Virus record (IMG/VR): IMGVR_UViG_2690316321_000005
DNA from: a virus
Lineage: Duplodnaviria > Heunggongvirae > Uroviricota > Caudoviricetes
Length of the DNA: 18,942 nt
Direction: 5' to 3' (one strand)
The position numbers were made by a program, and so were the translations under genes. The notes under the pieces were generated by a model. The model made no database searches, was not told the DNA's origin, and saw only the letters and a list, made by a program, of their open reading frames with translations. This document shows, in pieces, positions 6,208 to 6,978 of this stretch. Within the stretch, counting starts at the first letter, position 1. Each line of letters begins with the position of its first letter.

Positions 6208-6297
6208 TCAAATAAGTGGTTTGCTGCCTAATTTCATTTTCTGGCGACCAACACAAGTCACACCCATTTCACTGCGTGGCTTGCTGTAATAAATTCG
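6208..6297 (-). pseudogene. Remnant 3' end of an N antiterminator gene (C-terminal about 29 codons with stop)
   Basis: Hand translation of the minus strand gives ...RIYYSKPRSEMGVTCVGRQKMKLGSKPLI-stop. This parallels the C-terminus of the intact N upstream (...SIYYKDSNPLGNKIHAVQKIKLYSKPPYGAY) and matches my recollection of the phage 21 N C-terminus. No N-like sequence precedes it in frame. Confidence 0.45.
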
Positions 6298-6311
6298 GTT
6301 AGTTCAGACAA

Positions 6312-6331
6312 TAAAAACCCACCGAAGTGGG
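6312..6331 (-). terminator. Intrinsic terminator (tL1-like) directly after ORF 6332..6676
   Basis: Minus strand: CCCACUUCGGUGGG hairpin (GC-rich stem, UUCG loop) followed by UUUUUAUU, beginning at the stop codon. Confidence 0.6.
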
Positions 6332-6676
6332 CTATGACCATTTTTTATTTGGATTTCGTTGGTGAGCGTGGTTAACAACTCTGTGCATTACATCCTCATA
6401 TTTTTCATCTTCAATTTTTTCAACATCGCGAGGAAATGGTGTTGCTAATGCTTTGTCAACTTTGTCCATTGGGTCTTCATTAATTTTATATTCAGGACCG
6501 TCATCTATAGCATTAAATCCAGGTGTTACACCGTTTTTTAATGCATATGCTATCCTCTTTTCCCATCTCGCTATTCTCCTCCTGTCTCGAGATGTAAGGC
6601 CTCTATCAGATACTTTTCTGTTTTGTCCGCGGTCAGGATTAACATAAATAGTCTTTTTCACCATAAGCATACTCAA
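6332..6676 (-). CDS. Hypothetical basic/acidic protein (114 aa) translationally coupled to N
   Basis: Start ATG overlaps the N stop (ATGA). Translation MSMLMVKKTIYVNPDRGQNRKVSDRGLTSRDRRRIARWEKRIAYALKNGVTPGFNAIDDGPEYKINEDPMDKVDKALATPFPRDVEKIEDEKYEDVMHRVVNHAHQRNPNKKWS. No family recognised. Confidence 0.6.
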   Translation of the reverse strand: MSMLMVKKTIYVNPDRGQNRKVSDRGLTSRDRRRIARWEKRIAYALKNGVTPGFNAIDDGPEYKINEDPMDKVDKALATPFPRDVEKIEDEKYEDVMHRVVNHAHQRNPNKKWS

Positions 6677-6978
6677 TAAGCACCGTACGGTGGTTTACTG
6701 TACAATTTTATTTTTTGGACTGCATGTATTTTGTTTCCTAATGGGTTTGAATCCTTATAATAAATACTTCTATTTTTTCGAACGACTTCTTCTTTCTTCT
6801 TGCAGCAAAGGTTTCCTAGTGATGCTGCTTTGTCCGCTCTGACGCAACCAGAGAGATTTAGCGCAATTTTTCGCGCCAGTGCTTCATTACTGCGTCGCTC
6901 GGCAATAAGTTCTGCTCTGCGAGCTTTGTAGCGGCTTTTTGCCGTACCTTTGGATTCTTTCCAGACAATGGTTACCAT
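6673..6978 (-). CDS. N: Transcription antitermination protein N (phage 21-like)
   Basis: True start is the ATG at 6978 with AAGGAG 6 nt upstream, internal to the track ORF. Product begins MVTIVWKESKGTAKSRYKARRAELIAERRSNEALARKIAL..., an arginine-rich motif recalled as phage 21 N. Positioned just downstream of pL/nutL. Confidence 0.8.
   Translation of the reverse strand: MVTIVWKESKGTAKSRYKARRAELIAERRSNEALARKIALNLSGCVRADKAASLGNLCCKKKEEVVRKNRSIYYKDSNPLGNKIHAVQKIKLYSKPPYGAY

What the first reader, a model, noticed from the sequence alone, without database searches (positions are those of the whole stretch)
6208..6760. Duplicate N C-terminus marks a recombination junction that brought in a 114-codon gene coupled to N
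The intact N (6673..6978) ends ...SIYYKDSNPLGNKIHAVQKIKLYSKPPYGAY. About 400 bp further along the leftward operon, after ORF 6332..6676 and its terminator, a second in-frame N 3' end with its own stop is preserved (...RIYYSKPRSEMGVTCVGRQKMKLGSKPLI, 6208-6297). This implies a cassette (variant N 3' end, ORF114 and a terminator) replaced part of an ancestral N 3' region by recombination within N. ORF114 is therefore cargo physically and translationally (ATGA overlap) tied to N, an unusual linkage for an unknown protein.
Basis: seen in the sequence. Interest (0 to 1): 0.55.

Follow-up and report, generated by a model that had tools for sequence, protein, structure and literature searches.

The report
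Nun exclusion gene embedded in N
The "unknown" 114-codon gene is the well-known phage HK022 Nun protein, which blocks rival lambda-type phages. It sits in a 482-bp block spliced into the 3' part of the antiterminator gene N, and the dead second N tail is the scar of that splice. The layout is real but old, and common in E. coli prophages.

Summary
Window 6208-6300 (minus strand) is an in-frame, unexpressed 3' fragment of a phage 21/lambda-type N gene. It is 96.8% identical to phage 21 N nt 208-300 and matches PHROG N-like at E 3e-12.

- ORF114 is not unknown. It is Nun, 99% identical to the HK022 transcription-arrest/exclusion factor.
- There is no ATGA overlap. The accepted nun ATG lies 8 nt after the N stop.
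- nun has its own promoter, PNun, whose hexamers lie inside the alternative N 3' end.

A 482-bp block (6301-6782) replaces 11 nt of a phage 21-type N. It carries a replacement N C-terminus with PNun, then nun, then an intrinsic terminator.

The layout is neither recent nor unique:
- It occurs in mEp235, mEpX1, Kapi1, PA28 and Stx1a phages.
- About 190 of 5426 complete E. coli genomes have it.
- A lineage whose Nun is only 65% identical has it too.

The right junction is shared and the left one varies, so the block probably spreads by homologous exchange through N-derived flanks.

By-product: Nun-tail proteins carry at least eight different N-like RNA-binding heads, and many are followed by N 3' remnants.

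Overall this is a known system with an instructive scar. Interest is modest.

The parts
7089..7129 (-). nutL of phage 21 type: boxA GGCTCTTTAA (7129-7120) and boxB hairpin TCTCAAC-CTAACC-GTTGAGA (7108-7089).
   Evidence: Read from the sequence. The region is co-linear and near-identical with DE3/imm21 and mEp235, where boxA is annotated. No lambda-type boxB is present anywhere in the window.
6673..6978 (-). N antiterminator CDS (101 aa), a chimera. Codons 1-65 are phage 21 type. Codons 66-101 are a different N C-terminal allele, called here the KIHAVQ type.
   Evidence: PHROG 271 at E 2e-31. Window 6786-6978 is 95.9% identical to N21 nt 1-193.
6301..6782 (-). Inserted block (482 nt) that replaces 11 nt of an N21-type gene. 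It holds the replacement N 3' end, PNun, nun, the terminator and a 12-nt filler.
   Evidence: The DE3 N matches only the two flanks, and HK022 matches 6315-6790 at 95.6%. GC is 31-35% in windows lying inside the block against 48-53% in the N 5' part.
6673..6782 (-). Replacement N 3' end (VRKNRSIYYKDSNPLGNKIHAVQKIKLYSKPPYGAY*). It completes the N ORF and carries the nun promoter.
   Evidence: In the phage collection, copies above 90% identity occur only in the nun-carrying phage records. The nearest other relatives are Salmonella phage N proteins at 66-83% (ES18 gp54, ST64T gp24 among them).
6697..6725 (-). PNun promoter: -35 ATGCAG (6725-6720), 17-nt spacer, -10 TACAGT (6702-6697). It lies inside N codons 85-94.
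   Evidence: The sequence is identical to the nun promoter hexamers annotated in phage O276 (HK022 immunity region) by R. King. This 30-nt window is the most conserved of the whole block between two Nun lineages: 93% against 72.6% overall. The generic sigma-70 scan did not flag it because the -35 is weak.
6332..6664 (-). nun CDS (110 aa from ATG 6664; alternative ATG at 6670). It has an arginine-rich boxB-binding motif and a C-terminal HAHQRNPNKKWS arrest tail.
   Evidence: PHROG 5632 at E 5e-71. 99.1% identical to HK022 Nun.
6313..6333 (-). Intrinsic terminator of nun: hairpin CCCAC-TTCG-GTGGG plus a T tract.
   Evidence: Terminator scan. RNA fold gives -10.7 kcal/mol. The hairpin keeps compensatory changes in HK022, L017, L010 and L011.
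6301..6312 (-). 12-nt filler ATTGTCTGAACT between the terminator and the remnant; this is the right junction.
   Evidence: The same junction is in mEp235, mEpX1 and PA28. Related forms ATTGACT... and AATGCCT... occur in diverged lineages.
6208..6300 (-). Dead 3' remnant of a phage 21/lambda-type N gene (codons 70-99 plus the stop). It is not expressed.
   Evidence: PHROG 271 at E 3e-12. 96.8% identical to N21, and 100% over 81 nt to a live lambda-type N. An in-frame TGA lies just upstream and there is no start codon. No CDS is annotated here by PGAP.
5573..6196 (-). Next gene of the pL operon, Nmad5 family. It follows the remnant's stop codon exactly as it follows an intact N elsewhere.
   Evidence: PF18757 at E 3.5e-71. 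The identical N-3'-end/Nmad5 joint is in E. coli VTB97022v.

Best explanation
The locus is the nun moron of HK022-like phages, lodged inside the 3' third of a phage 21-type N gene.

Anatomy. The 482-bp block supplies three things:
- A substitute N C-terminus, so that N stays whole.
- The constitutive promoter PNun, written into the last codons of that substitute C-terminus.
- nun and an intrinsic terminator.
The displaced original N tail (6208-6300) is left downstream as a silent remnant.

How it works (inferred from HK022 biology):
- In a lysogen, pL is repressed. PNun transcribes only nun and stops at the terminator. Nun binds lambda-type boxB RNA on a superinfecting phage and arrests RNA polymerase.
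- The resident phage is spared because its own nut sites are of phage 21 type.
- In lytic growth, the pL transcript makes the chimeric N. N-modified polymerase then reads through the nun terminator and the remnant into Nmad5, cIII, kil and the recombination genes.

History (inferred):
- The right junction arose once, by an illegitimate join just after the terminator.
- Since then the block has moved among phages by homologous crossovers in its two N-derived flanks. This also keeps the remnant looking like live N alleles.
For: Shown here:
- Identity of the parts: Nun, N, the remnant, the terminator, and the PNun hexamers identical to the annotated ones.
- Phage 21/DE3 N is contiguous and matches only the flanks.
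- The block has a foreign base composition.
- The right junction is identical in the window, mEp235, mEpX1 and PA28, and is present in 188 complete E. coli genomes.
- The left junction differs. The window switches after GAAGAAGTCG, while PA28 and the Stx1a phages switch about 5-8 nt further 3'.
- Relatives break away inside the remnant or exactly at its stop codon.
- The remnant's last 81 nt plus the Nmad5 start are 100% identical to a prophage with an intact lambda-type N.
- The same N(KIHAVQ tail)-nun-terminator-remnant order is found where Nun is only 65% identical. There the PNun stretch is the conservation peak, 93% against 72.6%.
- No lambda boxB is present in the window.
- Viable isolated phages carry the same chimeric N.
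Against: - Nothing here measures PNun activity, Nun exclusion or N function in this phage. These are carried over from HK022 work (King et al. 2000, which was not readable here; eLife 2017, PMC5386594; Bacteriophage 2014, PMC4124055).
- HK022, HK75 and one diverged lineage (L013) have nun without a downstream remnant. The remnant is therefore not an obligatory part.
- The idea that recombination keeps the remnant fresh is an inference from mosaic patterns in a handful of loci, not from a recombination analysis of all 188 genomes.
- The order of the historical events cannot be fixed.
Confidence: 0.8

Rival explanations
1. One reading: a one-off recombination in this phage brought in an unknown cargo gene that is translationally coupled to N through an ATGA overlap.
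For: A block really is inserted within N and bounded by two N 3' ends. The nun start lies only 2-8 nt after the N stop, so some coupling on the pL transcript is conceivable.
Against: - The cargo is Nun.
- There is no ATGA; the overlap is TTGA, with a non-annotated TTG start.
- nun has its own promoter.
- The identical junctions are in many phages and in about 190 E. coli genomes, and in a 65%-diverged lineage.
Confidence: 0.07
2. The remnant is the footprint of nun's own origin. On this view an N paralogue had its RNA-polymerase-binding tail cut off by insertion of a short arrest tail plus stop plus terminator, leaving the last ~30-35 N codons untranslated downstream. The flanking N homology then lets the arrest module recombine into other N alleles. 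(This concerns origin, so it is compatible with the best explanation.)
For: - Nun residues 25-78 align with N residues 1-50 by profile comparison: probability 87%, E 4e-6.
- N proteins are pulled in by the Nun profile through that same part.
- The conserved tail VVNHAHQRxPxKKW sits on at least 8 different N-like arginine-rich heads.
- P0042 matches an N protein over its central 56 residues, up to about 12 residues before the tail (39% identity, E 5e-13).
- N 3' remnants of three different types follow nun-like genes in most lineages examined.
Against: - A truly ancient dead remnant should have decayed, so its survival needs the recombination-refresh assumption.
- In the L011 to L010/L012 series, a remnant arises by simple deletion of the 5' part of an N gene lying downstream of nun. 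Remnants can therefore form secondarily.
- HK022 and L013 lack a remnant.
- The junction positions differ between lineages (codon ~65, ~70 and ~78 equivalents).
Confidence: 0.3
3. In-place tandem duplication of the N 3' end, followed by divergence of the two copies, with nun captured between them.
For: Two N 3' ends lie in the same orientation 474 nt apart.
Against: - The copies share only 29 nt at 79%.
- They belong to different allele classes, each with close relatives elsewhere: the KIHAVQ class with Salmonella phage N, the other with phage 21 and lambda-type N.
- The non-functional copy is the one that is 97-100% identical to live genes. That is the opposite of what divergence after duplication predicts.
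Confidence: 0.03
4. The remnant is kept because it is functional, as a small peptide or as a cis element for the downstream gene.
For: It is free of frameshifts in all window-type relatives. Its stop codon abuts the ribosome-binding site of the next gene, as in intact N genes.
Against: - An in-frame stop lies just upstream, with no start codon before an internal Met that would give only 19 aa.
- It is not annotated.
- It carries a 15-nt deletion at its 5' edge in L017/L023, its type changes between lineages, and it is absent from HK022, HK75 and L013.
- The downstream gene differs among relatives.
Confidence: 0.05

Closest known systems
HK022 nun locus (putL, PNun, nun, terminator)
   Same: - Window 6315-6790 is 95.6% identical to HK022.
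- Nun is 99% identical.
- The PNun hexamers are the same, and the terminator is equivalent with compensatory stem changes.
   Different: - HK022 has no N gene. It keeps only the last 38 codons of the KIHAVQ-type N as a dead fragment upstream of nun, with the stop mutated TGA to TGG. putL replaces nutL and the N 5' part.
- In the window that same stretch is the live end of a full N gene, and a second N tail lies downstream.
- HK022 has no downstream remnant.
Phages mEp235, mEpX1, Kapi1, PA28 and the Stx1a-converting phages (N plus Nun as annotated in GenBank)
   Same: The N-nun-remnant architecture and the right junction are identical, at 91-98% nt identity.
   Different: - The downstream gene and the distal part of the remnant differ.
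- In PA28 and the Stx1a phages the N stop is lost to a 1-nt deletion and the terminator stem is broken.
- None of these records annotates the remnant.
Phage 21 N / nut (as in lambda imm21 and DE3)
   Same: - The nutL region just upstream of N and N codons 1-65 are about 96-97% identical.
- The remnant equals N21 codons 70-99.
   Different: N21 is uninterrupted. Its own C-terminus is used, and no nun follows.
Morons of lambdoid phages (promoter + gene + terminator units; Juhala et al. 2000, from my own knowledge; review PMC3594210 was listed but not read)
   Same: It is a self-contained promoter-gene-terminator unit with deviant base composition. It is absent from the same place in close relatives, and by homology with HK022 it is expressed from the repressed prophage.
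   Different: It lies inside a gene rather than between genes. It brings a replacement 3' end for that gene, and its promoter is encoded within that replacement coding sequence.
Integrating elements that carry a substitute 3' end of their target gene (phage 21 and e14 in icd, elements in tRNA genes; from my own knowledge)
   Same: The outcome has the same shape: the interrupted gene is completed by element-borne sequence, and the displaced original 3' end remains downstream as a remnant.
   Different: There is no integrase and there are no att sites in or next to the 482-bp block. The left junction varies, which points to general recombination rather than site-specific recombination.

Membership tests
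Nun (HK022 transcription-arrest / superinfection-exclusion factor) | Sequence membership in the Nun family. | tested here: met
   PHROG 5632 at E 4.8e-71, full length. 99.1% identical to HK022 Nun over 110 aa.
Nun (HK022 transcription-arrest / superinfection-exclusion factor) | [quoted passage not shown] | tested here: met
   The motif RGLTSRDRRRIARWEKRIAYALKNG and the tail HRVVNHAHQRNPNKKWS are identical to HK022. The roles of these residues are taken from PMC5386594 and PMC4124055.
Nun (HK022 transcription-arrest / superinfection-exclusion factor) | Constitutive prophage promoter PNun just upstream, and a terminator just downstream. | tested here: met
   The hexamers and spacing are identical to the annotated PNun. 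The terminator is supported. This is sequence evidence only.
Nun (HK022 transcription-arrest / superinfection-exclusion factor) | Excludes lambda-nut phages but not the carrier phage. | not testable with these tools
   Indirect evidence only: the carrier has phage 21-type nutL and no lambda boxB.
N antiterminator, phage 21 specificity | A phage 21-type arginine-rich motif together with the cognate nutL boxA/boxB upstream. | tested here: met
   The first 40 residues are identical to N21. The sequence just upstream of N is identical to DE3 and the boxA/boxB motifs lie 5' of it.
N antiterminator, phage 21 specificity | An N-family C-terminal region (the RNA polymerase-binding part). | tested here: met
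   The PHROG 271 match runs to residue 99 of 101. The conserved RK..YY..G..QK..SKP columns are kept. The allele type is that of Salmonella phage N proteins, not N21.
N antiterminator, phage 21 specificity | Antitermination activity. | not testable with these tools
   Plaque-forming phages mEp235, mEpX1 and Kapi1 carry the same chimeric N.
Moron (autonomous promoter-gene-terminator insert) | Own promoter and own terminator flanking the gene. | tested here: met
Moron (autonomous promoter-gene-terminator insert) | Absent from the same position in otherwise homologous genomes, with atypical base composition. | tested here: met
   DE3/phage 21 N is contiguous. GC is 31-35% within the block against 48-53% in the N 5' part.
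Moron (autonomous promoter-gene-terminator insert) | Inserted between two genes. | tested here: not met
   The block lies within N at codon 65/66 and replaces 11 nt of it.
Site-specific integrating element with a target 3'-end duplication | A recombinase gene and att-like repeats at the ends. | tested here: not met
   The 482-bp block holds no ORF other than the N tail and nun. There are no terminal direct repeats beyond chance. The left junction is variable.

The most novel reading that the evidence does not exclude
The two N-derived flanks are not incidental. On this reading Nun-type proteins are N antiterminators whose polymerase-binding tail has been replaced by a portable module: about 17-30 arrest-tail codons, a stop and a terminator.

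- N homology lies on both sides: the N-like 5' two-thirds of nun, or a whole N upstream, and an N 3' remnant downstream.
- This lets the module recombine into any N allele.
- The result would be arrest/exclusion factors aimed at whichever nut specificity that N head recognises.

This would explain three observations made here: the at least 8 arginine-rich head types found on one conserved tail, the tandem nun plus phage 21-like-head paralogue pairs, and the recurrent N 3' remnants. It would also mean that Nun's specificity for lambda is one case of a diversifying anti-N arsenal.
Probability: 0.3. Interest if true: 0.65.

Novelty: new member of a known kind. Interest (0 to 1): 0.35.

Why it matters
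For this window the result is mostly tidying up:
- Two genes that RefSeq calls "hypothetical" are N and Nun.
- The odd second N tail is a recombination scar, not a gene.

Two points go a little further:
- It is a clear example of an accessory gene lodged inside an essential regulator without breaking it. The insert brings a spare end for the host gene, and its own promoter is written in that spare end's codons. This coding-plus-promoter stretch is the best conserved part of the block.
- The survey prompted by the scar shows that Nun is not a lone lambda-specific oddity of HK022, whereas the 2014 paper (PMC4124055) describes its specificity as unique. Nun belongs to a small family in which one conserved arrest tail sits on many different N-like RNA-binding heads, some in tandem. 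If those heads set target specificity, they would be ready-made tools and natural experiments on how an antiterminator is turned into an arrester.

Tried and rejected
- IS903 false lead. An apparent N-like hit downstream of nun in HK022 (RNLIYSTKPHS) is the translated IS903 inverted repeat. The same IYSTKP string appears at IS903 ends in other loci. Rejected.
- Extending the remnant upstream. I tried a gapped alignment of the 12-nt filler (GTCTGAACTAA) to N21 codons 65-69. It gives 6/11 matches, which is not significant. Ungapped homology starts at AACCG, position 6300.
- DNA-level repeat search. Only a 29-nt, 79% direct repeat links the two N tails. The duplication is therefore visible only through the protein family.
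- Rfam. No family reached its gathering score anywhere in the window.
- Lambda boxB search. Nothing better than a chance 3-mismatch hit.
- Generic promoter scan. It did not report PNun because the -35 is weak, but it did find a pL-like site at 7203-7175.
- Literature:
  - King, Madsen and Weisberg 2000 (PMC94296) is not held.
  - Oberto 1989, Juhala 2000 and Weisberg 1999 were not looked up (known to me only from memory; none surfaced in the full-text searches). I could not check whether the N fragment upstream of nun in HK022 was described there.
  - Full-text searches found no paper on N plus Nun co-occurrence, on the remnant, or on Nun paralogues with other heads.
- In-place duplication and functional-remnant readings were considered and rejected (see the rival explanations).

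Full report
**Context.** The window is a lambdoid prophage. It is 100% identical to one in E. coli 382634_2f, where it sits next to torS. Around the finding, on the minus strand, the order is:
- a P22 C2/phage 21-type repressor (7295-7945) and a pL-like promoter;
- nutL of phage 21 type (boxA 7129-7120, boxB 7108-7089);
- N (6673-6978);
- ORF114 (6332-6676);
- a terminator;
- the second N tail;
- an Nmad5-family gene (5573-6196).

**Observation.** The second N tail is real.
- Window 6208-6300 reads NRIYYSKPRSEMGVTCVGRQKMKLGSKPLI*. On its own it hits the N-like family PHROG 271 at E 3.2e-12.
- It is 96.8% identical over 93 nt to nt 208-300 of phage 21 N (from phage DE3). Its last 81 nt are 100% identical to the end of an intact lambda-type N in another E. 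coli prophage.
- An in-frame TGA closes the frame just upstream, and there is no start codon. PGAP annotates nothing there.
- The two tails in the window resemble each other only weakly: 29 nt at 79%, and 41% over 32 aa. Each is an N tail of a different allele class.

**What ORF114 is.** It is Nun, the transcription-arrest and superinfection-exclusion protein of phage HK022.
- It matches PHROG 5632 at E 5e-71 and is 99.1% identical to HK022 Nun.
- The ATGA overlap does not exist. The ORF finder's TTG overlaps the N stop as TTGA. The annotated starts in HK022 and mEp235 correspond to the ATGs at 6664 or 6670, which lie 8 or 2 nt past the N stop.
- nun also has its own promoter. The PNun hexamers annotated in phage O276 by R. 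King (who mapped the promoter) are -35 ATGCAG and -10 TACAGT with 17 nt between them. They are present unchanged at 6725-6720 and 6702-6697, inside N codons 85-94.
- A hairpin plus T tract follows nun at 6333-6313, with a fold energy of -10.7 kcal/mol.

**Junctions.**
- Phage 21 N is contiguous. In the window, N21 nt 1-196 (95.9% identical) and nt 208-300 (96.8%) flank a 482-nt block at 6301-6782 that replaces 11 nt.
- HK022 matches 6315-6790 at 95.6%. The shared unit is therefore the alternative N tail, nun and the terminator.
- GC within the block is 31-35% against 48-53% in the N 5' part.
- In HK022 and HK75 the alternative tail is a dead 38-codon fragment lying behind putL, and in HK022 its stop is mutated.
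- In the window the same stretch is the live end of N.

**Spread and age.**
- The same N-nun-remnant layout is in mEp235 (annotated N and Nun), mEpX1, Kapi1, PDP110P1, PA28 and the Stx1a-converting phages, at 91-98% identity.
- Among 5426 complete E. coli genomes, 220 carry the block, 192 carry the N 5' part plus block plus remnant, and 188 carry the exact terminator/remnant joint.
- The right junction (ATTGTCTGAAC[T/A]AACC; ATTGTTTGGACTAAC in PA28) is the same join in all window-type phages.
- The left junction is not fixed. The window switches allele after GAAGAAGTCG, and PA28 and the Stx1a phages switch a few bases later.
- Relatives diverge inside the remnant (mEpX1, and one genome at window ~6256) or exactly at its stop codon.
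- This pattern fits one old illegitimate join on the right, followed by homologous crossovers in the N-derived flanks.
- A metagenomic lineage whose Nun is only 65% identical (L017-L019) has a different N 5' part. It nevertheless has the same tail type, nun 8 nt later, the terminator and a lambda-type remnant.
- Across that distance the block is 72.6% identical overall. The best-conserved 30-nt window, at 93%, is 6726-6697, which is PNun.
- The tail's amino-acid type (NPLGNKIHAVQ) also occurs in Salmonella phage N proteins that have no nun. There the DNA is GC-richer and lacks the hexamers.
- The promoter therefore seems to have been written into an existing N tail, mostly through codon choice.

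**Mechanism.** What is shown is the parts and their order. What is inferred from HK022 work (PMC5386594, PMC4124055; King et al. 2000 known to me but not readable here) is the following:
- In the lysogen, PNun makes Nun. Nun binds lambda-type boxB on an incoming phage's transcripts and wedges RNA polymerase.
- The resident phage has phage 21-type nut sites and no lambda boxB, so it is spared.
- In lytic growth, N-modified polymerase reads through the nun terminator.
- The remnant does nothing except serve as homology.

**Wider family.**
- Nun is rare: 22 clusters among 5.8 billion proteins, and 21 representative hits among 1.84 billion.
- It is always in the early-left operon beside N, an N fragment or putL.
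- N 3' remnants follow nun-like genes in most lineages examined, and they come in three allele types.
- One series (L011 to L010/L012) shows a remnant arising by deletion of the 5' part of an N gene lying downstream of nun.
- Profile comparison aligns Nun residues 25-78 with N residues 1-50: probability 87%, E 4e-6.
- The tail VVNHAHQRxPxKKW sits on at least eight different arginine-rich heads. These include:
  - a lambda-N-like head (Hafnia phage Pocitis76);
  - a phage 21-N-like head (ORF97, which sits in tandem with a classical nun);
  - a protein (P0042) that matches an N protein over its central 56 residues and stops matching about 12 residues before the tail.
- These observations feed the more novel reading given separately. 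They lie outside the window.

**Verdict.** The recombination-scar reading is supported, but the event is old and widespread. The cargo is a textbook protein, and the claimed coupling is wrong. This is a known system with an instructive anatomy, of modest interest.

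Noticed in passing
L011 2824-3117; L012 473-766; L020/L021 2324-2617; L031 2501-2797; L032 2501-2794: A second Nun paralogue (97 aa, 'ORF97'). Its head resembles the phage 21 N arginine-rich motif (MVKITINPAKDNSKNRRYKERGELIAKRKA) and its tail is the Nun arrest motif (KVNHAHQRRPDKKWS). It often lies in tandem directly after a classical nun. There are 14 clusters, in Klebsiella and Enterobacter among others, all unnamed.
   Followed up: partly
L008 (Hafnia phage Pocitis76) 2001-2267; L015/L016 2501-2767; P0038: An 88-aa Nun-like protein. 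Its first ~50 residues are lambda-N-like (MDAQARRREKRK..., Pfam N36) and its end is the Nun tail. It lies just after a P22-type N or mini-N, and a P22-type N 3' remnant follows it.
   Followed up: partly
P0037, P0039, P0042-P0047: At least eight different arginine-rich N-terminal heads sit on the same conserved VVNHAHQRxPxKKW tail. P0042 matches a Klebsiella N protein over its central 56 residues (E 5e-13), up to about 12 residues before the tail, which looks like a tail swap.
   Followed up: partly
L011 2380-3940: A put-type (HK022-like putL) phage that also keeps an intact lambda-like N (70% identical to lambda N). This N lies 500 nt downstream of two nun genes whose first head looks lambda-boxB-specific. 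It is unclear how this phage avoids self-arrest, or whether the N is used at all.
   Followed up: no
L031 (Klebsiella sp. P1CD1) 2132-3298: Two N genes flank a Nun-like gene. The downstream N (84 aa) has nearly the same arginine-rich motif as the Nun-like protein (63% over 24 aa), which suggests a local duplication origin.
   Followed up: partly
L030 (Salmonella phage UPF_BP1) 1-800: putL is followed by an HNH endonuclease gene and then a truncated gp24 (the N 3' half only). This is another case where a put module has replaced nutL and the N 5' part, leaving an N 3' fragment.
   Followed up: no
L007 (PA28, same in the Stx1a phages) 1600-2000: A 1-nt deletion removes the N stop, so N runs 11 extra codons across the nun start. 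The nun terminator stem is disrupted (CCCACTTCGATAGA). The GenBank annotation of nun there is fragmentary.
   Followed up: partly
window 6332-6978 (= L027 12523-13169): RefSeq/PGAP names both N (WP_053898015.1) and Nun (WP_000930321.1) 'hypothetical protein' in the identical genome, and across most of the ~220 genomes.
   Followed up: yes
window 5573-6300; L009 955-1916: The remnant's last 81 nt plus the start of the Nmad5 gene are 100% identical to a prophage in which an intact lambda-type N directly precedes Nmad5. The N 3' end behaves as a module boundary whether the N is alive or dead.
   Followed up: partly
L027 18576-22487 (beyond the window's low-coordinate side): The prophage integrase lies next to a frameshifted torS, the region where HK022 is reported to integrate (PMC6814406).
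   Followed up: no
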